The notes under the pieces: generated by a model
Databases searched by the model: none
Told to the model about the DNA's origin: nothing
What the model saw: the letters and a program-made list of their open reading frames with translations, nothing else
Shown: positions 1 to 10,990 of the stretch, in pieces
Position numbering within the stretch: position 1 is the first letter of the stretch
Layout: each line of letters begins with the position of its first letter
Position numbers and translations under genes: made by a program
Source: a virus
Taxonomy: Duplodnaviria > Heunggongvirae > Uroviricota > Caudoviricetes
IMG/VR virus record: IMGVR_UViG_2617270964_000005
Length of the DNA: 10,990 nucleotides
Strand: one strand, 5' to 3'

Positions 1-344
1 TGTATGCGCGAGGTTACCGACTGCGGCCTGAGTTTTTTAAATGGCGGAAAATCGTGTTGAGGCCAACGCCCATAATGCGGGCGGTTGCCCGGCATCCAAC
101 GCCATTCATGGCCATATCAATGATTTTCTGGTGCGTACCGGGTTGAGAAGCGGTGTAAGTGAACTGCAGTTGCCATGTTTTACGGCAGTGAGAGCAGAGA
201 TAGCGCTGATGTCCGGCGGTGCTTTTGCCGTTACGCACCACCCCGTCAGTAGCTGAACAGGAGGGACAGCTGATAGAAACAGAAGCCACTGGAGCACCTC
301 AAAAACACCATCATACACTAAATCAGTAAGTTGGCATCATCACC
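1..344 (-). mobile_element. IS1 insertion sequence, partial (left ~344 bp including the terminal inverted repeat; remainder lies beyond the window start)
   Basis: Reverse complement of 1..344 matches the IS1 left end as recalled, including the terminal repeat GGTGATG(A)TGCCAACTTACTGAT at 322..344 (one mismatch to the canonical end) and the full insA reading frame. IS1 is about 768 bp, so insB and the other end are outside the window. Confidence 0.9.
14..289 (-). CDS. insA: IS1 InsA protein (transposition regulator, N-terminal part of the InsAB' transposase)
   Basis: 91-aa product [91 protein letters not shown] is essentially identical to IS1 InsA as recalled (zinc-finger CxxC...CxxC motif, 91 aa). 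Confidence 0.92.
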
Positions 345-738
345 ACATCTCGTATGTAATGGAATAAGTCAGATCTGCAGAACTCCATAACGCCATATCG
401 TCATCACGACGATACTCATAGCCCTGCGTAACCATCGTGGTAATCAGTCCTGCCAGTGCCGGGATCGCGGTCATCGCCGGGTAAATCCGGCTTTCCATCC
501 ACTGATCAAGCTCTGAATCCGGTACCTGTGCCGGTAAAAACACCTCAATATGCAGCGTGGCCCGCCAGGTATCTGCATCCAGCTCTTCACCGGTATACTC
601 TGCATCCGTCAGATAAACCGCGATCGCAGGAAAATCCTCTTCGTCAAAAACAACGGGGCGACCATCAAACAGCGTCGCCCCGTGTTCATGCTGCTCGAGT
701 GCATCCAGCACTGCGGCACGAATGTCAGTGTGTTTCAT
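340..738 (-). CDS. U: Tail tube terminator protein, lambda gpU homolog (132 aa); the last sense codon and the stop codon are supplied across the IS1 junction
   Basis: Translation MKHTDIRAAVLDALEQHEHGATLFDGRPVVFDEEDFPAIAVYLTDAEYTGEELDADTWRATLHIEVFLPAQVPDSELDQWMESRIYP... aligns along its length with lambda U (131 aa) as recalled. ATG at 736..738. Overlaps the Z stop in an ATGA arrangement, as in lambda. Confidence 0.85.
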   Translation of the reverse strand: MKHTDIRAAVLDALEQHEHGATLFDGRPVVFDEEDFPAIAVYLTDAEYTGEELDADTWRATLHIEVFLPAQVPDSELDQWMESRIYPAMTAIPALAGLITTMVTQGYEYRRDDDMALWSSADLTYSITYEMW

Positions 739-1310
739 CGTTTTATCGCAATCCTCAGTTGTTGTTTCAGCGCGGATGCCAGTTCTCCGGGCAGGCGTTC
801 ACGCCGGATACGGTCAACATTCTCATCAAATGCCTGTTTCAGTGGGGCCGCCATCGGGATTTTCACCACCTGAATGGGAAGGCGATTACGCTTTTTCCTT
901 CCCTTGTCGTCATTGCCCTCCTCATATCTGGCCTGGGGAAGACGTTGCATAACATGCCAGCGCCCATTATTTAATCGCTGGATAAATGCCCGCTGATAAC
1001 GATGCTGACCGGCTTTGAGTATGCTGTTCGGACGACGCCCCAGCATTCTGATCCCCAGCTTAATCACAGGGAGATCACCGCGGTTAACGATAATTCTGGC
1101 ATTCGGATTTCTGACCGTCGCCCGTTTCAGTCTGGACCGTTCCTTTACCAGTTTCCGTCTCACCCTGGTTTCCCGGGCAACCTGTGACGAAGACTGATTA
1201 ATCGCCGTTGTGGCCACGCGGTTAATGGTCATTGCAGAAGCAGCCGGAATGGCGTTTTTACGAACCCGGCTCAGATTATCAATCGCCTGATCAAGCCCTT
1301 TTATCGCCAT
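735..1310 (-). CDS. Z: Tail completion protein, lambda gpZ homolog (191 aa)
   Basis: 191 aa versus 192 aa for lambda Z; basic Arg/Lys-rich protein in the lambda position between FII and U. ATG at 1308..1310 with a GGGTGA Shine-Dalgarno-like sequence upstream. Confidence 0.8.
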   Translation of the reverse strand: MAIKGLDQAIDNLSRVRKNAIPAASAMTINRVATTAINQSSSQVARETRVRRKLVKERSRLKRATVRNPNARIIVNRGDLPVIKLGIRMLGRRPNSILKAGQHRYQRAFIQRLNNGRWHVMQRLPQARYEEGNDDKGRKKRNRLPIQVVKIPMAAPLKQAFDENVDRIRRERLPGELASALKQQLRIAIKR

Positions 1311-1325
1311 AATTTCACCCTGCGT

Positions 1326-1679
1326 TTATCGTCGCCGGTTAACAGCGGGTGGTTGCCCACGGTTGAGCCAGAGATAACAGCTTCCCCCGTCATCCGGAGA
1401 AACACGATCCACCCAGAACATCTCGCCGTTAATGGTCAGCGTGTCACCACGCCGCACGGCACGCACCGTATCCGTCCGCACAAATAATGACGGGCTGCTT
1501 CCTTCAATACGGACCCCGCCACCGGCAAAACCCAGCGACTCCGGATCGTCAAAAACCCCCTGAACTTCGCCGCCACGTTGTGCTCCGGAGGTGAACTGCG
1601 CACGGATCCCCATCACTTCAACGATCGTACTGTCCACCCCGGCAAGGGCAGCATCAAAGGCATTCTGAAAATCACGCAT
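1326..1679 (-). CDS. FII: Head-tail connector / tail attachment protein, lambda gpFII homolog (117 aa)
   Basis: Product ends ...TLTINGEMFWVDRVSPDDGGSCYLWLNRGQPPAVNRRR, near-identical to the lambda FII C-terminus as recalled (...FWVDRVSPDDGGSCHLWLGRGVPPAVNRRR). Same length as lambda FII. Confidence 0.9.
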   Translation of the reverse strand: MRDFQNAFDAALAGVDSTIVEVMGIRAQFTSGAQRGGEVQGVFDDPESLGFAGGGVRIEGSSPSLFVRTDTVRAVRRGDTLTINGEMFWVDRVSPDDGGSCYLWLNRGQPPAVNRRR

Positions 1680-2055
1680 ATTCAGCCGTTCCGTGCTGTA
1701 TCATGGCCGTTGCCAGTGATGATGGCACCAGAACACGCATACCCCGTAACGCCAGCTCAACGGGACGACCTGTCTCCGGGCAATACCCCATTACTTGCAG
1801 GCACTTCCGTACCCGGACGGCTTTAACATCATCCGGAGCATCCGTGTTGTTCAACTGCTCACCATCGTCTGTGTGATTTTGATCAGCCCCGCTCTCATCA
1901 GAGTGCATAATGCCCTCCGGGGAAACAGCAAGCTCCTCTTCCCACTCAGACACACGTTGAGCAATATCCGCAGCACTCCCCGACATATCCGCCTCGCGCC
2001 CCAGCAGGCCAGCCAGTTGACGAAGACGATTCAGATTTTCTTCTTTTGTTGCCAT
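1672..2055 (-). CDS. FI: DNA-packaging / head assembly protein, lambda gpFI-like (127 aa from the ATG at 2055)
   Basis: Acidic protein in the lambda FI position between E and FII. ATG at 2053..2055 is preceded by a strong AGGAGG Shine-Dalgarno with a 5-nt spacer. The track ORF start at 2103 is a GTG lying inside the terminator hairpin and is unlikely to be used. Similarity to lambda FI is weaker than for the neighbouring genes. Confidence 0.65.
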   Translation of the reverse strand: MATKEENLNRLRQLAGLLGREADMSGSAADIAQRVSEWEEELAVSPEGIMHSDESGADQNHTDDGEQLNNTDAPDDVKAVRVRKCLQVMGYCPETGRPVELALRGMRVLVPSSLATAMIQHGTAEYA

Positions 2056-2067
2056 CTCAGCCTCCTG

Positions 2068-2098
2068 TGAAAAAAGACACGGGGGCATTTCGCCCCCG
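2068..2098 (-). terminator. Candidate intrinsic terminator or RNA-stabilising hairpin between the major capsid gene and FI (minus-strand transcript)
   Basis: Perfect 7-bp GC stem (CGGGGGC at 2080..2086 pairing GCCCCCG at 2092..2098) with a 5-nt loop; the minus-strand RNA then reads UGUCUUUUUU, immediately followed by the FI Shine-Dalgarno. No T-tract follows on the plus strand. Confidence 0.5.
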
Positions 2099-2106
2099 CT
2101 CACGGA

Positions 2107-3135
2107 TTATTTCACCTGCACCACCACAAACTCATCCGGATCCGGCAGCACCATCAGCGGTGCGGACTGCGTCATGGTGAATTCACGGGCCGGATCGCCC
2201 ACAGTCAGCCAGTGTTTCGGATAACGGGAAGAGGCCACCACACCTTCGGACAACGCCTGCGCATCCTGAATGGCACCATAGCAACGAATGCCCTCTGCTG
2301 CCGTATTCCCCAGGACCAGTGTGCCCTCCGGCAGATAACGTTTTTCGGTACCGTCGTCTGCCACATAAGACGTTTTCGCCACCACAATGGCCAGATCACC
2401 GTAATACCCTTTGAAAGACACCACCGCCCCCAGGTCTTTCACTGCCGTTTCGAGTTGTGAATTTGAGCCGCGACGGGTATCCAGTTTTTCGCGGAACAGC
2501 TTAAAGCCATTCAGCAGACGCCAAACCGTACCGTCCATAATGGCAATATTCACAAGACCGCTGGCCTGATCGCAGTAAAGGTCAATATCATGCGTCGGAT
2601 CAAACGTATCACGGTCCTGCTCAGACCATTTTTTACCGTCGGCCTGCTCAATGTTATTTCCTTCAGAGCGTCCGAAATCCACCTCGACCGTGTCAAACTG
2701 TTCCCCTTCCATGGTGTATTTGCCATACAGCACGGCATTCACCGCCTGCATTTCTTCCACCTGGACAATAGCGTGCTCTTCCTGTTTGAGGTTATCGGTA
2801 ATGATACGCAGACGACGGTAGGCCGGGTCGTTCAGCTGAGCCGGATCTTCACCGGGAAGGCGCTCAACCGCCTGCTGGTAATTAAATTCGTGTTTCGGCT
2901 TGACGTAGCCCGGACGCAACACGCGGGTTTCACCACCACGATGGCGCAGCACTTTTCCTTCAACGATCGGGGAGACATAGGCCGCCACCGGCGTTTTTCC
3001 GGTAATTTTGTCCAGCATCACCTCTTCGGTGTGGAAATTCACCGTACGGCGGAAAAACAGCTCCAGAAATAGCGCACGGAATTTAACTTTTTGTTCGGTA
3101 TAACCGAGTAACTGGCGGGTCGTAAACAATCCCAT
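2107..3135 (-). CDS. E: Major capsid protein, lambda gpE homolog (342 aa)
   Basis: 342 aa versus 341 for lambda E, in the lambda gene order directly after D. ATG at 3133..3135 with an AAAGGA Shine-Dalgarno. Confidence 0.92.
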   Translation of the reverse strand: MGLFTTRQLLGYTEQKVKFRALFLELFFRRTVNFHTEEVMLDKITGKTPVAAYVSPIVEGKVLRHRGGETRVLRPGYVKPKHEFNYQQAVERLPGEDPAQLNDPAYRRLRIITDNLKQEEHAIVQVEEMQAVNAVLYGKYTMEGEQFDTVEVDFGRSEGNNIEQADGKKWSEQDRDTFDPTHDIDLYCDQASGLVNIAIMDGTVWRLLNGFKLFREKLDTRRGSNSQLETAVKDLGAVVSFKGYYGDLAIVVAKTSYVADDGTEKRYLPEGTLVLGNTAAEGIRCYGAIQDAQALSEGVVASSRYPKHWLTVGDPAREFTMTQSAPLMVLPDPDEFVVVQVK

Positions 3136-3163
3136 AAATCAGTTCCTTTCATTCAGAAATCAG

Positions 3164-3185
3164 TCAGGCCACCATGGTGGCCTGA
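3164..3185. repeat. Perfect 22-bp palindrome TCAGGCCACCATGGTGGCCTGA in the D-E intergenic region
   Basis: Read directly from the sequence; self-complementary over the full 22 bp, centred on CCATGG, located between the D stop (3193) and the E start (3135). Confidence 0.6.
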
Positions 3186-3192
3186 TAACGTG

Positions 3193-3540
3193 TTACGGCA
3201 GAGCCGCGTGACTCAGGGCTGTGCCGGCAAAGGCATTTGCCTTTTTGTGTTCATCCACACTGTCAGGCCAGCGGATTGCCTCCGTCGCAAAGGTCCCCGA
3301 CTTGTAATAGGTCAGCACCGTCTCTGTGCCTTCAAGCGGCAGTACCAGTATGCCAACCGCACTACCGGCTTTCTGTCCATCCCAGACCACCAGTTTCCCG
3401 GTGGCTTCATCCAGCATCAGGGGCGTCAGAGCCGGTGTTGCAGAAGAAATCCCGCTGCTGCCTGTGGCGGTATGAGCCGGATCATTACCGGCAAAAATAC
3501 GTACTTCCGCACGCTGTTCAGTGATGGTTTTCGTCACCAT
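3193..3540 (-). CDS. D: Head decoration protein, lambda gpD homolog (115 aa)
   Basis: Contains ...DPAHTAT...TPLMLDE...KLVVWDG...AVGIL...YKSGTF...AFAGTA..., matching conserved blocks of lambda D as recalled. 115 aa versus 110. Confidence 0.88.
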   Translation of the reverse strand: MVTKTITEQRAEVRIFAGNDPAHTATGSSGISSATPALTPLMLDEATGKLVVWDGQKAGSAVGILVLPLEGTETVLTYYKSGTFATEAIRWPDSVDEHKKANAFAGTALSHAALP

Positions 3541-3576
3541 TTTGTTAAAACCTCATATTGATGGTCAGCACTGACT

Positions 3577-5082
3577 TCATGGCATGGCCATGAGCATTTT
3601 CACGTCCGCATCACCGTCTGCTGACGTCTGTGACACGCCACCCCGCACCGCTGCCGGTGAATGATTCGCCATGAAATGTTCAAACAGGGCGGTTGTGGAT
3701 GCAGAGACCGGTTCGGCCTTACCTGATCCCGCAGCCAGCACAGCCCGGGCGTTCTCCACGGTCATTCCCGGGCAGGCCGCCAGTTTTTCAGCCTGCGCTT
3801 CTGCCCCTTTTGCCTCATCCAGGGCCATGATCTGATCACGAAGTGAGGGCCCGGCATCCGCCAGTGGTGCAGCCGCCAGGATCGGGCGGGCTTTTTCCAC
3901 CGTCATCTCCGGCATCGCCGCCAGCGTTGCCGCCAGTTGTTCACGACCGTTCGCTTCTTCACACGCCATAATGCGATCGGCTTCACTCTGCGCGGATGCC
4001 ACCGGCTGCTGCGGTGCCGCCGCGGCCAGAATCGCCCGGGCCTGTTCAACGCTCATGCCCTGTTGCCCTGCCAGCATCGTGGCAAGCTGTTCACGTCCTT
4101 TCGCTTCCTGGCATGTCAGGATCCCCATCACTCGCTGGTTCTCCTGCACGGCGGCTTCCGTTGCAGTTAATTGCGGCATAGTGCCTCCTCTGACATTACT
4201 GTTCAGCGCCGTGGCCATCACACTGATGGCATCCGACGCATTGATTAATTCATCCGCCAGCCCGGCCTCAATGCCGGACTGACCTTCAAAAACGGCGGCC
4301 TCTGTTCCCGTGACTGCATCAACAGACAGACCGGTAAACATCGCCACTTTTTCGGCAAACATCCGGCGCGCCGCATCAATCCGCTGCTGCATGTCCTGGC
4401 GAACCTCTGCCGGCAACGCTTCAAACTGATTGCCATCCACCTTGTGCGCCCCTGAGTAAATCAGCGTGATATCCACACCGGCCTGCGCCAGATGACCGGC
4501 ATAGCTGACATGGCTCATCATCACGCCAATGGAGCCGATACGGGATGTCTGGGTAACCAGCCGTCGGGAGCAGGCAGACGCCAGCAGCATGGCTGCAGAA
4601 CAGGCCGTGTCATTGCACAGTGCCCAGACCGGCTTCTGCTGACGGAGGCGGTAAATCATGTCAGCGCAGTCAAACGCGCCGGCGGCCTGCCCGCCCGGAC
4701 TGTCAATGTCCAGCAGTACGCCCCGCACCTGGCTATCCGCCATTGCCTGCTGAAGACAGGCGACAATGCCGTCATAGCCTGTCATTCCGGAAAATGGCCG
4801 CATACCACCCAGCCGGTGCACCAGCGTGCCGGTCACCGGCAGTACAGCAATACCGTTCACCACCCGGTAAACACGGGCCGGTCGTTTACCTCCGGCCATA
4901 TACTCGTCCGTTTCAGCCAGCATTCCGGGAGCATCAAGCTGTACCTGCTGTTGTGGTACCGAAAGACTTGCTGCCCCCATCTCGCGCCCGAGCGCGCAAA
5001 AGAAAACCCGCGCATAGGCGGGCTCCAGAAGCAGCGGTTCATTGAATGCTGCGGCAATAATGTGTGAAAGATTACGTCTCAC
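3577..5082 (-). CDS. C: Head maturation protease / scaffold, lambda gpC homolog (S49/ClpP-like peptidase domain with a Nu3-like scaffold C-terminal region); 501 aa, GTG start
   Basis: N-terminal two thirds align with lambda C as recalled (AFNEPLLLEPAYARVFFCAL..., VNGIAVLPVTGTLV, GMTGYDGI, DSPGG, AGAFDCADMI, KPVWAL, RRLVTQTSRIGSIGVMM, ITLIYSGAHKVDGN). Longer than lambda C (439 aa) because of a repeated C-terminal motif. Start codon is GTG at 5080..5082 and overlaps the end of B. Confidence 0.88.
   Translation of the reverse strand: MRRNLSHIIAAAFNEPLLLEPAYARVFFCALGREMGAASLSVPQQQVQLDAPGMLAETDEYMAGGKRPARVYRVVNGIAVLPVTGTLVHRLGGMRPFSGMTGYDGIVACLQQAMADSQVRGVLLDIDSPGGQAAGAFDCADMIYRLRQQKPVWALCNDTACSAAMLLASACSRRLVTQTSRIGSIGVMMSHVSYAGHLAQAGVDITLIYSGAHKVDGNQFEALPAEVRQDMQQRIDAARRMFAEKVAMFTGLSVDAVTGTEAAVFEGQSGIEAGLADELINASDAISVMATALNSNVRGGTMPQLTATEAAVQENQRVMGILTCQEAKGREQLATMLAGQQGMSVEQARAILAAAAPQQPVASAQSEADRIMACEEANGREQLAATLAAMPEMTVEKARPILAAAPLADAGPSLRDQIMALDEAKGAEAQAEKLAACPGMTVENARAVLAAGSGKAEPVSASTTALFEHFMANHSPAAVRGGVSQTSADGDADVKMLMAMP
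3727..4134 (-). repeat. Three diverged tandem copies of an approximately 40-47-aa motif inside the gpC/Nu3-like scaffold region
   Basis: Protein-level repeats RVMGILTCQEAKGREQLATMLAGQQGMSVEQARAILAAAAP, RIMACEEANGREQLAATLAAMPEMTVEKARPILAAAP and QIMALDEAKGAEAQAEKLAACPGMTVENARAVLAAG. The underlying DNA copies are diverged, not identical. Confidence 0.6.
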
Positions 5083-6664
5083 GTGGTGTTGTCTCCTCTT
5101 CCGGCCTGCGACTCTCCGCTATCTGCTGCTGATACGCCTGCGCTATCCACACCGGACGTGAGAGTCCGGCTTTTTGCCGCTCAGCAGATTCCCTGACCTG
5201 CTGGCGGAAAATGTCCTGATAATCCTCGCCCATCAGCGCCAGCTCTTTCTCATACGTGCTCAGTCCGGCCTCAATGCGCATCACTGATTCCTGGACTTCC
5301 TTGAGCCCGTCAATGGCCATTCTTCCGGCACCAATCCACTCTGCCCGTGACCAGGCTGATCGCGCCTGATAAAAATCAAAACGTGCCCGTGGCGGACGAA
5401 TAATCCCCCGAAGAAGTGCCTCTTCCAGCCAGCAGGAAAACATCTGCGTGGCCAGCCGGGCCGCAATAAATTTTCGCCGCCCCATAAAATAGCGCCACGA
5501 CTCATTGGCGGAGGCGCGGGCACTTGAGTAACTGACCTTCGAGTAATCACGGGACAACTGTTCGTAGGAAACGCCAAGACCGGCGGCGATATACCGCAGC
5601 AGCGCCTGTTCAAGCGCAGAAAATCCATTGTCTGAATCCTGCGCAGTCTGTAGTTTCAGATCATCACCAGGGAAAAGGTGCGGAATTTTGACACCGCCCA
5701 GTGTCACGTTATTCGTGTCATACCAGCTGGAGAACTTCTCCAGAATATTAATAAGCGGATTATCCTTCTGCTCCTGTGGCGCGCCGGCGATATATTCAAA
5801 GGCCTTTTCGGTATCAAGTTCACTTTCAATCGTCGCTGCATACATCGCCTTCACTATGGCCGACTGAAGCTGTGTTGCCTGCAGGGAATCGAGCATCTTC
5901 AGCCGTTCCATGACGCTGTAAAACTGATTAGCCCCACGGGTCTGCCCGTCCTCCACCGGCTCGAAAATATGCAGCATGGCCGGACGCCCGGTGGGAAGTT
6001 CACGCGGGATCCGTTCCCATCGTCCACTACCAGAGAACGGAAAATCATCCTCACAGATATGGTACGCGACGGCACGGCCATATCGATCGACCTCCACACC
6101 GGCCCGCAGAAAACGGTTCCCGATACCGTGTCCTGGCGTGTCCACCCGTTTCGGACTCACGGCTTTAAAACGCGTACGAAACAGTTGCGTACTCTCCGTA
6201 TCCCAGACCGGCTGCACAAAGATTTCGCCGTTAAACGCATGAACGCCCACACCTTCACGGATAAATTCCGTAAACGTGCGTTTCCCTTCCACGTCGATCT
6301 CACCAAACATCCCTTCTGCGTATTCTGACCAGGCCGCCTCCACCTCATCGACAAAACTTTTTGCCGCGGTCTCCCGCATCCCCAGCCAGCGCCAGTTCGG
6401 ACGGTAGCTAATCAGAAACATATGCCCGACAATGTGATCCTTATGCAGGGCCACCGCATTGGCCGCTATTCCGTTATTGCGCACCAGATCATCTGCACGG
6501 GCATTCCCCAGACGCAACGCGGGCAGCAGGGCCGCATCGGCACTCTGCGCCGGTGGCAACCACTCTGCCATTTGCCCGCCAAATCCTGCACCGCCACCGG
6601 TGTAGCTGAGGCTCTCCCGAAGCGGAACGCCGTTCACATCAATCAGGACAGGCGTTCGTTTCAT
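5072..6664 (-). CDS. B: Portal protein, lambda gpB homolog (530 aa)
   Basis: Long conserved blocks shared with lambda B as recalled (GNARADDLVRNNG, HIFEPVEDGQTRGANQFYSVME, QLQSAIVKAMYAATIESELDT, LLRYIAAGLGVSYEQLSR, ARASANESW, GSGRMAIDGLKEVQE, EAGLSTYEKE). 530 aa versus 533. ATGA overlap with W. Confidence 0.93.
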   Translation of the reverse strand: MKRTPVLIDVNGVPLRESLSYTGGGAGFGGQMAEWLPPAQSADAALLPALRLGNARADDLVRNNGIAANAVALHKDHIVGHMFLISYRPNWRWLGMRETAAKSFVDEVEAAWSEYAEGMFGEIDVEGKRTFTEFIREGVGVHAFNGEIFVQPVWDTESTQLFRTRFKAVSPKRVDTPGHGIGNRFLRAGVEVDRYGRAVAYHICEDDFPFSGSGRWERIPRELPTGRPAMLHIFEPVEDGQTRGANQFYSVMERLKMLDSLQATQLQSAIVKAMYAATIESELDTEKAFEYIAGAPQEQKDNPLINILEKFSSWYDTNNVTLGGVKIPHLFPGDDLKLQTAQDSDNGFSALEQALLRYIAAGLGVSYEQLSRDYSKVSYSSARASANESWRYFMGRRKFIAARLATQMFSCWLEEALLRGIIRPPRARFDFYQARSAWSRAEWIGAGRMAIDGLKEVQESVMRIEAGLSTYEKELALMGEDYQDIFRQQVRESAERQKAGLSRPVWIAQAYQQQIAESRRPEEETTPRET

Positions 6665-6867
6665 AACCTCACTCCCAGCGGACGACGGCGACGCCGGGTT
6701 GTCCCCAGTACCGACTCCGCATCATTGATCGCCCGGTTAAGCTCATCCAGAGAAGCCGCCGTATATTCAATTCTGCGACCATCTTTCTGGACAGACACCA
6801 CCCGTTTACCGGTTAATAAATCAAGGCGCGCCTGACGCAGCGCCTGCAGTTCAGCGACTGTAACCAT
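6661..6867 (-). CDS. W: Head-tail joining / DNA stabilisation protein, lambda gpW homolog (68 aa)
   Basis: 68 aa, same length as lambda W, with the shared core LLTGKRVVSVQKDGRRIEYTAAS (lambda [22 protein letters not shown] as recalled). Sits between A and B as in lambda. Confidence 0.85.
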   Translation of the reverse strand: MVTVAELQALRQARLDLLTGKRVVSVQKDGRRIEYTAASLDELNRAINDAESVLGTTRRRRRPLGVRL

Positions 6868-8779
6868 TCACTCCTCCGGACAGCTTCGCTGCCAGTTCTT
6901 TAAGGGTTGGCCGGGTCGTCTCTTCTTCCCGGGATTTTGCCAGTACAGCCAGATCAAGCTGCCAGCGTTGCACGGACACACGTAATGCCGCGTAGGCATA
7001 CACCAGGCAGTCCAGCGCTTCGTTACGCCGCTTTTTGTTATCCCACAGCAGACGCATCTTTCCTTTTTCCCACTTCTCCACAAGCTCTTCCGCGACCAGT
7101 TGCTGCGCCTCTGTCTGCGAAAAAATCTCCGGATCATCAGGAAAACGGATGGCATACGACGTGGCTTCATCCACAGGCGTGGGATCGGCTTTCATACGGG
7201 CATAGAGAATTTCTTTTGCGGTGTCCGTCCCCACTTCACACAGATACACGCCCCGCTGATTGCGGGTTTTTGGCATGGTGATCACCGGCTTGCCATAGAC
7301 AGATGCGCCTTTTACCGGCAGCACCCGGAAAACACCGTGTTTTTTTGACCTCTGATAAACGATTTCGCCATCGATCCCCCCGATGTCCCAGCAGACACGG
7401 GAAATAGTCATTTCGGTTCCGTCTGCATGGCGGTATTTTTTGTTGATCGCCGCATCCAAACGTAACAGCGTCTCTTCCTCATCGGGACGCCCCATAATGA
7501 TGATTTTATCTACCAGAAAGGCTTCCTCTCCCGGAGCCCATCCCCAGACATACATCTCGAAACGGTTTCGCTGCGAGTCAATGCCCGCCGTCAGATAAAC
7601 CACCCGGGCAGGCACCGCCGCCGTGTAACGCACAACCTTATCCATCAGTACCTGGTGATCGAGTTTTTCGCCCACGGCCTCTTCCCAGGTCTCGCCCAGC
7701 GTGGTGTTCACAAAGGTTTTCAGGCCGTTGGGATCTTTCAGTGCATCCAGCCAGTCATAGACAATCTGTACCCAGGTGGTGAACGGACTGTACGCCGTCC
7801 AGATATGGAAAGTGATGGAACGCGGCGGCGGAATTTCATCACCCCGGGCGCTGAAAAACATCAGGCCGTCACGGGTCCACATGCCCGTGTTTTCACAGAT
7901 CCACCGCCCGTTACTCTGGTCAAGCTCAGACTGATGGATCACACAGCCATGATGCTCACAAAGGTAGAAAACACTTTCTGGTTTATTCTTCTCCCACTTA
8001 AGACCGAAAGGCGAGGCATCATCGCCAAATTTCAGATACTGCTCCTCCCCACAGTGCGGACAGGGCACATAAAAACGCATGAAGTGTGCCGACTCGTTAG
8101 CGGCTTTTTCGATCTGGCAGGAGCCTTTGATTTTAGGCGTCGAGCCGCGAATGGATTTTGGCCATACAGAGCCCTCAATACGTTTATCCCCCAGCAGGGT
8201 TGGCGAACCCTCTTTTTCAACATCCGGTTCGAACGAGGAAAGCTCGTCATAACAGACCACATCCACGGATTTTTCACGGTAGTTTTTTGCTGCCGCACCA
8301 CCCAGACACCAGAACCCCACACCGGAGGAAAAACGCTTCAGGGTGAGCGTATTATCGCGGTGTTTTCTTCCGAACCATGGAGCCAGCTCCAGCAATGCAG
8401 GAACATCCCTTATCGTTGGCTCAACATGAGATTTCATAAAATCTTCAGCAGCTGAGTCCGTGGGCTGAAAAAGAAGGCTGTTGCGTGATTTATGCTCAAT
8501 AAAATAAGCCTCCACTCCCAGCAACATCTTTGTATAACCAACACGGGCAGATTTAATCAGGTTAACCGTGCGAATCAGATCGTTGCCCATACAGTTCATG
8601 ATGCCAACCTGAAACGGCAGTGTTTCCCACCGCCCGGGGGTATAAGACGACTCTTTAGGAAGGTAATAATGTTTATTGGCCCACTGAACTGTCGTCAGTG
8701 GAACAGGAATAATGAGAGATAAAAGCCCTGTAGCTATCGCACCGGCTGCATTAGCTGCCTTCTGCGCGTCTGAAATCAT
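6851..8779 (-). CDS. A: Terminase large subunit, lambda gpA homolog (642 aa from the ATG at 8779; an upstream in-frame ATG at 8821 would give 656 aa)
   Basis: Extensive identity to lambda A as recalled ([23 protein letters not shown](T/S)[18 protein letters not shown](A/K)[92 protein letters not shown]). The 8779 start has a GGGTGG Shine-Dalgarno and gives a 29-nt overlap with Nu1, as in lambda. Confidence 0.93.
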
Positions 8780-9299
8780 CGATCCACCCGCCCACGTTTT
8801 CACCGGCCTTAGCTGCAACATTGGAGGCTTTCGCGATTTCAGTTTTCACCACATCAAGGTGTGATGGTGAAATGTCCGGATATTTACGCTGTAATGTCAA
8901 CGGCACACGCACAAGTATCCCCGAAATCTCCTGTGCCACACGTTGCAGAATGAAGGTAAACAGTTCAGTTTCCAGCACTACTCCGTCTTCACGGGCATTT
9001 TTCAGTTCCTGCGCATCTGCCTGCGCTTTTGTGAGCCGGTAGCGTTCATAGTCAATGGTGCCGGGTTGTAAATCTGACTCCGCTGCCGCACGCAAATCGT
9101 CCAGTTCTTTGCGGAGCTTTTCGTTTTCGATATCAGTTTCCCTCTGCGCATACCACTGAATTGCCATGGCAGTATCAAATACAGATTCAATGCCCTTACT
9201 ACCTTTGGAGGCGCAAGGGAGTCCCTGAGACTGCCAGCGTTCAATCGTCCGCGGGTCCACGTTGAAAATTTCGGCAAGCCTCTTTTTATTAACCTTCAT
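8751..9299 (-). CDS. nu1: Terminase small subunit, lambda gpNu1 homolog (182 aa)
   Basis: [12 protein letters not shown]...[12 protein letters not shown]...[56 protein letters not shown] aligns with lambda Nu1 as recalled (MEVNKKQLADIF...NWQEQGMP...[55 protein letters not shown]). The C-terminal 35 or so residues diverge. Confidence 0.92.
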
Positions 9300-9475
9300 G
9301 AAAACAACCCATTATCAAATACAAGGCCCGACATGAAAACGCCAGAAAAAGGCATTTTCGGACACTTTCATGTCGGACCTTTACGGATGTAATATTAAAA
9401 AAAACAAAAAGTTATATTCGAGAAGTACCGACACGATTTTCCCTGAAAAATTTTCATAAATAGTGAAAAACCGCG
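9296..9475 (-). promoter_or_regulatory. cosB-like terminase binding region containing three copies of a CATGAAA-type repeat (candidate R sites) and an AT-rich segment
   Basis: Lies between cosN and the nu1 start. CATGAAAAC occurs at 9297..9305 and 9332..9340 as direct repeats, with an inverted imperfect copy (CTTTCATGTCG) at 9365..9375. The first 45 or so bp next to cosN resemble the lambda left end as recalled. Confidence 0.5.
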
Positions 9476-9487
9476 AGGTCGCCGCCC
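9476..9487 (-). other. cosN, the 12-nt cohesive-end site (minus strand reads GGGCGGCGACCT)
   Basis: Plus strand AGGTCGCCGCCC at 9476..9487 is the exact reverse complement of the lambda 12-nt cohesive end. Flanking sequence on both sides resembles lambda as recalled (right end ...GGTCCTTTCCGG(T/C)GATCCG...GTTACG, left end CTCGCGG(G/T)TTTTC(G/A)CTATTTATGAAAATTTT). Confidence 0.85.
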
Positions 9488-9510
9488 CGTAACGGCCCGG
9501 ATCGCCGGAA

Positions 9511-9517
9511 AGGACCT
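9511..9517 (-). other. cosQ-like element (minus strand AGGTCCT versus lambda GGGTCCT as recalled)
   Basis: Position and sequence relative to cosN match the lambda cosQ region as recalled. The exact cosQ boundaries are from memory and uncertain. Confidence 0.4.
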
Positions 9518-9519
9518 GC

Positions 9520-9542
9520 AAAATGATAATGGTTATCATTTT
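9520..9542. repeat. Perfect 10-bp inverted repeat with a 3-bp spacer (AAAATGATAA tgg TTATCATTTT) immediately next to the cosQ-like element
   Basis: Read directly from the sequence. A second inverted repeat (AGTCCGGT at 9549..9556 and ACCGGACT at 9572..9579, 15-bp spacer) lies just beside it. Confidence 0.6.
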
Positions 9543-9739
9543 CAATGTAGTCCGGTTTCTTCCACCATCGCACCGGACTGGCGACTATGAGGGGACAACG
9601 CCGCGCTCCGTTAACGCGGTAAACCCCGGTGTGTATCGTTTTTGATTATCCCCGCACACTCGCGCAGAGGAGTCTCCCTGTCGGGCTGCGGTCTCTGTTA
9701 ATGAGGGAATACAGCGACGATACGGCGCATCAGCAAAAC

Positions 9740-10207
9740 TTAGTTCAGGCACTGAGTGCGGATATAGTCCTGTGCCCCTTCCAGCTGCTTCTGCATTGTC
9801 ATCAACCGTTCTCTGAGGATGAAATAATCCCGTTCAGCGGTGTCTGCCAGTCGGGGGCCGGTTGCATTATCCACGCCGGAGGTGCCGGTGGCTTCACGCA
9901 CGGTACCGGAGCAGGTGGCGTTGATCCGCAGGCGCTTACGACCAGCGGCAACATCAGCACGCAGAGTTTCATTTTCAGCTCTCGCATCGGCTAATTCCCT
10001 CGAGTATCTGGCATCAAGTTCAGCGACATCACGCTGGCGTATCTGCATATCAGTAATTGTCGCGTTCGCCAGTTTCAGCTCACTGACTTTTTTATCGCGC
10101 TGCGCTTTGTAGGTGATGGCGTTATCGCGGTAATGATTCAGCCCCAGACTAAGCACACCACAGGCTACCAGCAGGACAATAATCACCACACACAGAACAC
10201 GGTTCAT
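9740..10207 (-). CDS. Rz: Inner-membrane spanin Rz (155 aa from the ATG at 10207)
   Basis: [95 protein letters not shown]...[22 protein letters not shown] is highly similar to lambda Rz as recalled. The track ORF extends to 10291, but that extension has no similarity to Rz and overlaps a separate small ORF. Confidence 0.92.
9802..9987 (-). CDS. Rz1: Outer-membrane lipoprotein spanin Rz1, embedded in the +1 frame of Rz (61 aa)
   Basis: [61 protein letters not shown] is similar to lambda Rz1 as recalled, with a lipobox (VSAC), a Pro-rich segment and a conserved WIMQP...[11 protein letters not shown]-terminus. ATG at 9985..9987. Confidence 0.88.
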
Positions 10208-10208
10208 A

Positions 10209-10295
10209 TCACCACCAACGGATTGCCCAGACCAGAACAGCAATGGCCACAATACGAATGGCAAATGCCATTGCCCGAATAAGTTCAGCACTCAT
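10209..10295 (-). CDS. Hypothetical 28-aa hydrophobic peptide (small ORF 3); its stop lies 1 nt before the Rz ATG
   Basis: Manual translation from the ATG at 10293..10295 gives [28 protein letters not shown], then TGA at 10209..10211. Not in the ORF track (too short). Core [14 protein letters not shown] resembles RALAFAIKWVAVGIAV in small ORF 2. No obvious Shine-Dalgarno. Confidence 0.3.
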
Positions 10296-10306
10296 CTTTT
10301 TAAAGT

Positions 10307-10429
10307 TCACGATTTCAGCGCAATGACCAGTTTTGCCAGCCCATACAGCATCGGAGACACAGCAATACCAACAGCCACCCACTTAATAGCAAAAGCCAGC
10401 GCTCTGCTGATGTCATCAGTCACTGTCAC
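10307..10429 (-). CDS. Hypothetical ~40-aa hydrophobic peptide (small ORF 2), GTG start assumed
   Basis: In-frame GTG at 10427..10429 (or 10421..10423) gives VTVTDDISRALAFAIKWVAVGIAVSPMLYGLAKLVIALKS, stop TGA at 10307..10309. It is the C-terminal part of the track's 90-aa ORF 10307..10579, whose own start is a TTG and whose N-terminal part overlaps small ORF 1 in another frame. A GGGG run lies about 7 nt upstream of the GTG. Confidence 0.3.
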   Translation of the reverse strand: MTVTDDISRALAFAIKWVAVGIAVSPMLYGLAKLVIALKS

Positions 10430-10557
10430 CCCAGCAGCCCCGACGAAGACAACATCACCCAGGCGAGGGACAGAAAAAGAGCAACCAGCATTAGTGAAAA
10501 TGAAATACCGACAATCACACACAGGACCTTTGCCGGCGTTATGAGTTTGTCTGACAT
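10426..10557 (-). CDS. Hypothetical 43-aa single-pass membrane peptide (small ORF 1) resembling the N-terminal membrane anchor of Rz
   Basis: ATG at 10555..10557 preceded by a strong AAGGGG Shine-Dalgarno with a 5-nt spacer. Product MSDKLITPAKVLCVIVGISFSLMLVALFLSLAWVMLSSSGLLG, stop TGA at 10426..10428. Shares GTCCTGTGTGTG...ATTGTC and GGGGCTG DNA strings, and the peptide motif (K/R)VLCV, with the 5' end of Rz at about 10150..10200. Confidence 0.45.
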   Translation of the reverse strand: MSDKLITPAKVLCVIVGISFSLMLVALFLSLAWVMLSSSGLLG

Positions 10558-10720
10558 AGCTACCCCTTAATTGCCACAATTAACTGGGATACTACCCATA
10601 AAAAAGGGATGCTCCAGACCAGCAAAAATTTCCAGTTTGGTAATTGACTAATCATGAGTCGCAACTCCCTAATCAGTTTGCTAAAATCAATCAAGGCAGC
10701 CTCCCATAGCTTACTGCCAT

Positions 10721-10760
10721 AAAAACAAAACCCCGCTTGCTGCCAACAAACGGGGTTTTT
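10721..10760 (-). terminator. Rho-independent terminator (strongest on the minus-strand transcript; possibly bidirectional) between the endolysin gene and the small ORFs
   Basis: Minus-strand RNA: 9-bp stem CCCCGUUUG / CAAGCGGGG (one G-U pair) with a 7-nt loop, followed by UUUUGUUUUU. On the plus strand the same hairpin has one C-A mismatch and is followed by TTTTTACTTTTATT. Confidence 0.6.
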
Positions 10761-10849
10761 ACTTTTATTCACTTACATTTTGCCAGTTCGCAGGATTTCG
10801 TGTTATCCGTCCGCCTTGGCCAACGTCATTTATTAGCAAAATATTCTGC

Positions 10850-10990
10850 TTATCTGTCGATTCCCCAGCACGCCAGCGCGCTCTCCTGGTCACGACGGGA
10901 TACCTGACCGTAACAGTTATTTGAGCGAATACGGCAGTCCCTGCCACCGTCCTTAATCCACCAGCGAATCGCCTCACACGCTCCCCTGCG
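10850..10990 (-). CDS. 3' end of an endolysin gene (T4-lysozyme-like, phage 21 R / RrrD type); the 5' part lies beyond the window end
   Basis: Open frame running in from the window edge with stop TAA at 10850..10852. It encodes ...RRGACEAIRWWIKDGGRDCRIRSNNCYGQVSRRDQESALACWGIDR, which resembles the C-terminus of phage 21 / DLP12 lysozyme as recalled (...[36 protein letters not shown]). Not in the ORF track because no start codon is in the window. Confidence 0.5.
   Translation of the reverse strand, partial: RRGACEAIRWWIKDGGRDCRIRSNNCYGQVSRRDQESALACWGIDR

What the first reader, a model, noticed from the sequence alone, without database searches (positions are those of the whole stretch)
322..345. 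IS1 is inserted at the stop codon of the tail gene U, separating the head genes from the rest of the tail operon
The IS1 terminal repeat ends at 344. The U frame runs ...Y-E-M-W-stop, where the W codon straddles the junction (345 from phage, 343..344 from IS1) and the TGA stop (340..342) is bases 3-5 of the IS1 end. My recollection is that lambda U ends ...YEM-stop, so the insertion landed in or next to the native stop and IS1 now supplies it. Downstream tail genes (V, G, T, H...) must lie beyond roughly 420 bp more IS1, so late transcription from the lysis/cos side probably suffers polar termination. This prophage is probably tail-defective or depends on IS1-borne readthrough.
Basis: partly seen in the sequence, partly recalled or inferred. 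Interest (0 to 1): 0.5.

Follow-up and report, generated by a model that had tools for sequence, protein, structure and literature searches.

The report
IS1 inserted at prophage U stop codon
A common bacterial jumping gene (IS1) has landed inside the stop codon of the tail-terminator gene U of a lambda-like prophage in one E. coli draft genome, which is an ordinary kind of event whose effect on the phage cannot be judged because the contig ends inside the IS1.

Summary
Window 1..344 is the left end of IS1: terminal repeat, insA, and the A6C frameshift site. It is 99.7% identical to a complete IS1 copy. The minus-strand U gene (738..340) reads ...ITYEMW-stop. W comes from phage base 345 plus IS1 bases 1-2, and TGA is IS1 bases 3-5.

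Uninterrupted relatives, one of them 100% identical over window 344..1400, and lambda gpU itself end ...ITYEM-TGA. V starts 7 nt later behind a GAGGA ribosome-binding site that overlaps the stop. So IS1 sits between the T and the GA of the native stop.

The +W allele occurs on a single contig in about 15 billion proteins, and the junction is in none of 5,426 complete E. coli genomes.

The window is a whole draft contig (JHDG01000009.1) that stops inside IS1. The other IS1 end, the target duplication and V are therefore not visible, and I could not retrieve them.

- Late transcription is Q-antiterminated, and Q is a documented polarity suppressor.
- A full IS1 copy shows no intrinsic terminator in this orientation.
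- V's ribosome-binding site would survive a simple insertion.

Overall this is an ordinary IS insertion in a prophage, of low interest.

The parts
1..344 (-). Left 344 bp of IS1 (IS1 bases 344..1 when read on the + strand). The contig ends inside the element, and about 424 bp of IS1 lie off the window.
   Evidence: 99.7% identity over 345 aligned columns to the complete IS1 of phage RCS47. Full element length of 768 bp derived.
322..344 (-). IS1 left terminal inverted repeat: GGTGATGATGCCAACTTACTGAT, with A at base 8 instead of the commoner C (the commoner base is from memory).
   Evidence: Read directly from the sequence. Identical end in the RCS47 IS1. The 23-bp extent of the repeat is my recollection of the IS1 literature.
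310..337 (-). Promoter-like site inside the IS1 left end (ATGCCA-16-TATGAT). It points into insA, the same direction as the phage late operon.
   Evidence: Consensus scan, with the same site in the RCS47 copy. Its identification with the known IS1 P_IRL promoter is from memory.
14..289 (-). insA, 91 aa, GTG start, intact.
   Evidence: ORF list. Pfam Zn_ribbon_InsA and HTH_Tnp_IS1 hits.
32..38 (-). A6C programmed -1 frameshift motif of IS1 (AAAAAAC), in the normal A6 form.
   Evidence: Sequence. Comparison with the A7 variant of RCS47. The role of the motif is established knowledge.
340..345 (-). New end of U: TGG (345,344,343; Trp132) and TGA (342..340). Base 345 is the surviving first base of the native TGA.
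345..353 (.). Predicted 9-bp target site: ACATCTCGT on the + strand, ACGAGATGT in gene orientation. It should be repeated at the unseen IS1 right end if this is a simple insertion.
   Evidence: Inference from the junction and from the usual 8-9 bp IS1 duplication. An 8-bp duplication is visible around the RCS47 copy. Not observed here.
340..738 (-). Tail terminator gene U, 132 aa instead of 131.
   Evidence: Pfam Phage_tail_U, 1e-61. End-to-end alignment to lambda gpU, 1e-68.
735..1310 (-). Tail completion gene Z, 191 aa. Its stop overlaps the U start.
   Evidence: Pfam Minor_tail_Z, 2.2e-49.
1326..9299 (-). Head and packaging genes FII, FI, E, D, C, B, W, A and Nu1 (phage 21 type). All have the same lengths as in the uninterrupted relative.
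   Evidence: Gene calls and Pfam families, compared with the annotation of L006. 96% identity to phage 21.
9476..9487 (-). cosN cohesive-end sequence GGGCGGCGACCT.
   Evidence: Exact match. The phage 21 record begins at this point (H94).

Best explanation
A copy of the insertion sequence IS1 has transposed into a lambda/phage-21-like prophage of an E. coli strain (draft assembly GCA_000601135.1).

The insertion point, seen from the head-gene side, lies between the first and second base of the TGA stop codon of the tail-terminator gene U. IS1 is oriented with its left end and insA next to U, so it is co-directional with the phage late operon.

Because the IS1 end reads GGTGATGA..., the U frame now reads ...ATG TGG TGA TGA. 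U gains one C-terminal tryptophan and stops on IS1 bases 3-5.

The contig ends 344 bp into IS1 because short-read assemblers cannot bridge a multicopy element.

Most likely (inferred, about 0.7) this is a recent simple insertion. The remaining 424 bp of IS1 would then be followed by a duplicated ACGAGATGT and by GAGGACGAT-ATG, that is, V with its own ribosome-binding site, then G, T, H and the rest.

In that case the expected consequences are modest:
- U carries one extra residue.
- U-to-V translational coupling is lost.
- The genome is 777 bp longer.
- Transcription is at most partly reduced, because Q-modified polymerase resists termination.

Whether the phage is still viable is not known.
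For: Shown:
- IS1 identity and its end at 344.
- The U reading frame and its new stop.
- The native ...YEM-TGA-GGACGAT-ATG(V) arrangement in relatives, one of them 100% identical over window 344..1400.
- Lambda gpU is 131 aa and ends in YEM.
- The junction appears in two assemblies.
- The window is a whole 10,990-bp contig.
- The +W protein is on one contig only, and the junction is absent from 5,426 complete genomes. A private allele fits a recent event.
- All 11 genes from Nu1 to U keep the lengths seen in the intact relative, and the region is 99.2% identical to it in one collinear piece.
- insA and the A6C motif are intact.

Bearing on polarity:
- Q is a processive antiterminator and a polarity suppressor.
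- No intrinsic-terminator-like site in the sense direction of a full IS1.
- The untranslated part of IS1 is G-rich.
Against: - The other IS1 end, the target-site duplication and V were not seen, so 'simple insertion' rests on prior expectation.
- A related prophage in strain 131 is cut off next to a 122-bp IS1 remnant. IS1-associated deletions therefore do occur in this prophage family.
- The C-terminal residue of U is almost invariably the Met of Y-E/D-M, and all 131 residues are ordered in the virion (PMC10721106). An extra Trp could matter.
- IS1 insertions are classically strongly polar in bacterial operons (from memory). No measurement exists for a Q-dependent transcript crossing IS1.
Confidence: 0.72

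Rival explanations
1. The IS1 marks a rearrangement, not a simple insertion. After inserting at the U stop, or by recombination with another IS1 copy, the DNA beyond it was deleted or inverted. The tail genes V to J are then absent or lie elsewhere, and the prophage is a head-genes-only remnant.
For: - The left flank is unknown because the contig ends in IS1.
- In strain 131 the same prophage type is truncated after FII by a 122-bp IS1 left-end remnant abutting the chromosomal gene panM.
- IS insertions and deletions are common defects of lambdoid prophages (PMC2669165).
Against: - At least 344 bp of the IS1 here are intact, with a complete insA.
- The 10.6 kb next to it is collinear with, and gene-for-gene as intact as, a complete relative. 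That fits a young event.
- Most IS copies in genomes are simple insertions (general knowledge, not tested here).
Confidence: 0.25
2. The insertion is simple but strongly polar. Late transcripts terminate inside IS1, V to J are not expressed, and induction yields DNA-filled heads without tails.
For: - IS1 insertions are classical polar mutations in the gal and lac operons, in both orientations, through Rho (from memory).
- After the insA stop, about 430 nt of IS1 RNA are translated only rarely (frame analysis).
- Uncoupling of translation from transcription exposes transcripts to Rho (PMC12360218).
Against: - Late transcription in lambdoid phages is Q-antiterminated.
- No intrinsic-terminator-like hairpin in the sense direction of IS1.
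- The untranslated stretch is G-rich, with C/G of 0.64-0.86.
- V keeps its own Shine-Dalgarno sequence in the predicted product.
Confidence: 0.2
3. The junction is an assembly artefact that joins a prophage contig end to IS1 reads from elsewhere.
For: IS1 is multicopy in most E. coli: 5,113 of 5,426 genomes matched a query that includes the IS1 part. The contig also ends inside it.
Against: - Two different assemblies (NCBI contig and Logan contig) give the identical junction with 0 mismatches.
- The break falls exactly at IS1 base 1, as transposition requires.
- The homology to uninterrupted relatives stops exactly there.
Confidence: 0.02

Closest known systems
IS1 (IS1 family insertion sequence of Enterobacteriaceae), and its classical polar insertion mutations in bacterial operons
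   Same: - Same element: 99.7% identity, terminal repeat, insA, A6C frameshift site.
- It lies inside an operon, between two cistrons.
   Different: - Here the operon is transcribed by Q-antiterminated polymerase, so the classical polarity may not apply.
- Only one end of the element is visible.
IS insertions in lambdoid prophages of pathogenic E. coli, e.g. nu1 of O157 Sakai prophage Sp4 disrupted by an IS (PMC2669165)
   Same: An IS inside the morphogenesis region of a lambda-like prophage, as part of ordinary prophage decay.
   Different: The Sp4 insertion destroys a coding sequence. This one leaves every visible reading frame intact and adds only one residue to U.
Phage P1 and P1-like RCS47, which carry a resident IS1 and remain viable
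   Same: - IS1 as a passenger in a phage genome.
- P1 insA and insB score as non-essential (PMC10695390).
- The RCS47 IS1 has the same A-at-base-8 end.
   Different: In P1 the IS1 does not sit in a long late operon between essential structural genes.
Lambda gpU tail terminator (PDB 1z1z, 3fz2, 3fzb, 8iyd, 8k37)
   Same: The 131 aligned residues cover the whole protein at E = 1e-68, with the same ...ITYEM end, and the gene order is Z-U as in lambda (V seen only in uninterrupted relatives).
   Different: One extra C-terminal Trp, encoded partly by IS1.

Membership tests
IS1 insertion sequence | Terminal inverted repeat starting GGTGATG / GGTAATG | tested here: met
   The left end GGTGATGATGCCAACTTACTGAT lies at window 344..322 and is identical to the left end of the complete RCS47 IS1. 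The right end is off the contig.
IS1 insertion sequence | insA encoding a zinc-ribbon plus HTH protein of 91 aa | tested here: met
   Pfam PF03811 (3e-21) and PF12759 (1.7e-30) on window 289..17(-).
IS1 insertion sequence | A6C -1 frameshift site linking insA to insB' | tested here: met
   AAAAAAC at window 38..32(-).
IS1 insertion sequence | Complete 768-bp element with insB' and a right inverted repeat | not testable with these tools
   The contig ends at IS1 base 344. Other contigs of the assembly could not be reached.
IS1 insertion sequence | 8-9 bp direct duplication of the target | not testable with these tools
   Only one junction is visible. Scans for the predicted second junction found nothing in genome contigs or metagenome contigs.
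Phage minor tail protein U (tail terminator, PF06141) | Full-length match to the family profile and to lambda gpU | tested here: met
   PF06141 at 1e-61 over profile positions 1-130 of 130. Lambda gpU residues 1-131 align at 1e-68.
Phage minor tail protein U (tail terminator, PF06141) | Gene position between Z and V in a lambda-type late operon | tested here: inconclusive
   Z lies immediately upstream. V follows in uninterrupted relatives, but here it lies beyond the IS1 and is unseen.
Polar IS insertion (Rho-dependent transcriptional polarity) | Reduced expression of genes downstream of the insertion | not testable with these tools
   This needs RNA or protein measurements. Indirect arguments point against strong polarity.

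The most novel reading that the evidence does not exclude
The insertion may be functionally silent. By landing in the stop codon, bringing its own stop and leaving V's ribosome-binding site intact, IS1 could ride as a passenger in the Q-antiterminated late operon of a still-viable lambdoid phage. The phage would then package IS1 and spread it between hosts.
Probability: 0.2. Interest if true: 0.3.

Novelty: already known. Interest (0 to 1): 0.1.

Why it matters
It matters little beyond this strain. It is one more example of IS-driven change in a prophage.

Two practical points follow:
- The 132-aa 'U' protein in the databases (WP_032234061.1) is an IS1-junction product, not a natural variant.
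- A contig that ends in IS1 should not be read as evidence that the tail genes are present or absent.

If the phage turned out to be viable, it would be a neat natural test of how well Q antitermination overrides IS1 polarity.

Tried and rejected
1. I looked for the same junction elsewhere, to read across the IS1. Megablast of window 1-1400 and 285-405 against 5,426 complete E. coli genomes, and of 285-405 against 50,697 phage records, found no place that spans the junction. The exact pattern CATCACCACATCTCGTATGTAATGG gave 0 hits in genome contigs and metagenome contigs.

2. I looked for the predicted far junction: IS1 right end, then an 8-10 bp duplication, then the V leader. It gave 0 hits in genome contigs and metagenome contigs. 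These negatives say little, because the source assembly is not in those collections.

3. An exact-protein look-up of the +W U protein found only the window's own contig and a Logan contig of the same run. Both stop in IS1.

4. I considered looking up V to find the neighbouring contig and rejected it. The strain's V sequence is unknown, the look-up is by exact sequence, and it lists only the 10 places with the longest flanks. No junction-specific ORF is predicted on the far side either: by my reading of the reconstructed far-side junction (built from the sequences, not a tool result), the V frame has a TAA 18 nt inside the IS1 right end.

5. Literature searches for the assembly, WGS and run accessions found nothing.

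6. The idea that relatives naturally end in ...EMW is rejected.

7. The idea that the IS1 similarity is only local is rejected.

Full report
**What the window is**

The window is the complete 10,990-bp contig JHDG01000009.1 of the draft E. coli assembly GCA_000601135.1. The protein in question is annotated in NCBI as WP_032234061.1 / EYD95113.1, 'phage minor tail U family protein [Escherichia coli]'.

On the minus strand the window carries the start of a lambda-type late operon:
- the 3' part of an endolysin gene and an Rz-type lysis gene;
- cosN (GGGCGGCGACCT, exact, at 9476..9487);
- then Nu1, A, W, B, C, D, E, FI, FII, Z and U.

The head genes are 96% identical to phage 21. More than 1,270 of 5,426 complete E. 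coli genomes hold at least 80% of this region. The closest is strain 100416, at 99.2% in one collinear piece.

**Checking the observation**

IS1. Window 1..344, reverse-complemented, aligns along its whole length to bases 1..345 of the complete IS1 in phage RCS47. Identity is 99.7%, and the single difference is A6 here against A7 there. The stretch contains:
- the terminal repeat (344..322);
- a promoter-like site pointing inward (337..310);
- an intact 91-aa insA with both InsA Pfam domains;
- the AAAAAAC frameshift motif (38..32).

IS1 base 1 is window 344. The complete element is 768 bp, taken from the 769-bp RCS47 copy with its extra A removed.

The U frame. The U ORF (738..340, minus strand) gives 132 aa ending ...LTYSITYEMW*. 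In gene orientation the junction reads ...GAG ATG T|GG TGA TGA TGC C.... The Trp codon is made of phage base 345 plus IS1 bases 1-2, and the stop is IS1 bases 3-5. Because this IS1 copy has A at base 8, a second in-frame TGA follows. Every coordinate in the finding is right.

**What was there before**

Uninterrupted relatives read ...TAC GAG ATG TGA GGACGAT ATG GCA.... One of them, strain 100416, is 100% identical to window 344..1400. There U is 131 aa and ends YEM-TGA. V starts 7 nt later, and its GAGGA Shine-Dalgarno sequence overlaps the U stop.

Lambda gpU (PDB 1z1z and five further entries with the same sequence; 3fz2 and 3fzb carry longer constructs) is 131 aa and aligns 1-131 to 1-131, ending ITYEM.

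Of the 120 cluster representatives listed for the U family, which reach down to about 70% identity, 112 end in Y-E/D-M, one each ends in YEV and YVM, and none ends in EMW.

IS1 therefore entered between the T and the GA of the native stop codon. BLAST homology to relatives runs to 344 rather than 345 only because IS1 base 1 (G) happens to equal the second base of TGA.

The +W protein is found on one contig in a collection of about 15 billion proteins. The junction is absent from all complete E. coli genomes, from the phage records, and from the species-representative and metagenome collections. It is a private allele, which fits a recent event.

The junction is also present, with 0 mismatches, in the independent Logan assembly of run SRR1186660. 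It is not an artefact of one assembler.

**What cannot be seen**

The contig stops inside IS1, as short-read contigs do at multicopy repeats. The Logan contig stops 25 bases into IS1. The right end of IS1, the target duplication, and whether V follows are all outside the data.

If the insertion is simple with the usual 9-bp duplication, the far side should read ...GGAGTCATTACC ACGAGATGT GAGGACGAT ATG(V). V would then keep its ribosome-binding site. I scanned for this sequence, allowing an 8-10 bp duplication, and found nothing. The source assembly is not in those collections, so the negative result is uninformative.

A caution comes from strain 131. There a prophage of the same type is cut off after FII by a 122-bp IS1 left-end remnant next to the chromosomal gene panM. 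IS1-associated deletions do happen in this family.

Against a deletion here:
- At least 344 bp of the IS1 are intact.
- All eleven genes from Nu1 to U have exactly the lengths of the intact relative.

I put a simple insertion at about 0.7 and a rearrangement or deletion at about 0.25.

**Mechanism and consequences**

Shown: U gains Trp132 and uses an IS1 stop, and IS1 is co-oriented with the late operon.

Inferred: U-to-V translational coupling is lost, and the genome grows by 777 bp.

That transfers the classical behaviour of IS1 in the gal and lac operons (from memory) to an operon that is transcribed differently. Four points bear on this:
- Lambdoid late genes are read by polymerase carrying Q. 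Q stays bound, narrows the RNA exit channel and makes the enzyme resistant to pausing and termination.
- Lambda Q is described as a proven polarity suppressor, and Q21 forms a strong antitermination complex on its own (PMC12360218; see also PMC10695390).
- A consensus scan of a full IS1 copy finds no intrinsic-terminator-like hairpin in the sense direction.
- The rarely translated insB' part is G-rich, with C/G of 0.64-0.86. That is not what Rho loading sites look like, although this is only a crude heuristic.

The IS1 promoter in the left repeat points toward V. From memory it is weak and repressed by InsA, so it would not replace late-level transcription.

The effect of the extra Trp is unknown. 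All 131 residues of gpU are ordered in the virion. The described contacts use the O-loop (residues 25-37, to gpFII) and the E-loop (residues 45-58, to gpV), not the C-terminus (PMC10721106). On the other hand, the near-invariance of the terminal Met leaves room for an effect.

**Comparison with what is known, and verdict**

This is IS1, a gpU-family tail terminator, and an IS insertion in the morphogenesis region of a lambdoid prophage. That class of event is well documented, for example in the O157 Sakai prophage pool (PMC2669165). Nothing here lies outside known kinds.

The functional part (polarity, tail defect) is unsupported and, on current knowledge of Q antitermination, more likely wrong than right.

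Interest is low. The only mildly interesting possibility is that the insertion is silent and the phage carries IS1 as a passenger.

Noticed in passing
window 9476..9487 (-): Exact lambda/21-type cosN cohesive-end sequence GGGCGGCGACCT, between the Rz-type lysis gene and Nu1. The phage 21 genome record starts at this base.
   Followed up: partly
window 9585..10990: The Logan assembly of the same run breaks at 9584. The NCBI contig's right end (10990) falls inside the endolysin gene of the closest relative. The lysis region is therefore probably repeated in other prophages of this genome, and both contig ends are repeat boundaries.
   Followed up: partly
window 337..344 (IS1 bases 1-8): This IS1 copy has A instead of the commoner C at base 8 of the left repeat (GGTGATGATGCC; the commoner base is from memory). 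That creates a tandem TGA TGA in the U frame. Only 456 of 9,473 matching E. coli records had a best place at 99% identity or more to window 285..405.
   Followed up: no
L005 (phage RCS47) 492..1260: The IS1 of phage RCS47 carries A7 instead of A6C at the frameshift site, which fuses insA and insB' into one annotated insAB gene. It is flanked by an 8-bp duplication, AAATTTTA.
   Followed up: partly
L002 (E. coli strain 131) 4347..4468: A 122-bp IS1 left-end remnant borders a truncated prophage of the same type. The tail genes through FII are kept and the head genes are lost, next to the chromosomal gene panM. This is an IS1-associated deletion in a relative.
   Followed up: partly
protein cluster of U (P0002, P0130, P0131, P0134): The 90% cluster that holds U also lists V proteins (241-249 aa). 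Its representative P0002 is a stop-loss read-through form, U+LGRYGYTKSP, from a 743-bp contig. This looks like a clustering artefact, not biology.
   Followed up: partly
window 345..10990 compared with H62-H73: Several otherwise close relatives, including the O104:H4 outbreak strains, span about 600-1,000 bp more than the window over the same interval and align in 4-5 pieces. There is a variable insert somewhere between the lysis genes and the head genes.
   Followed up: no
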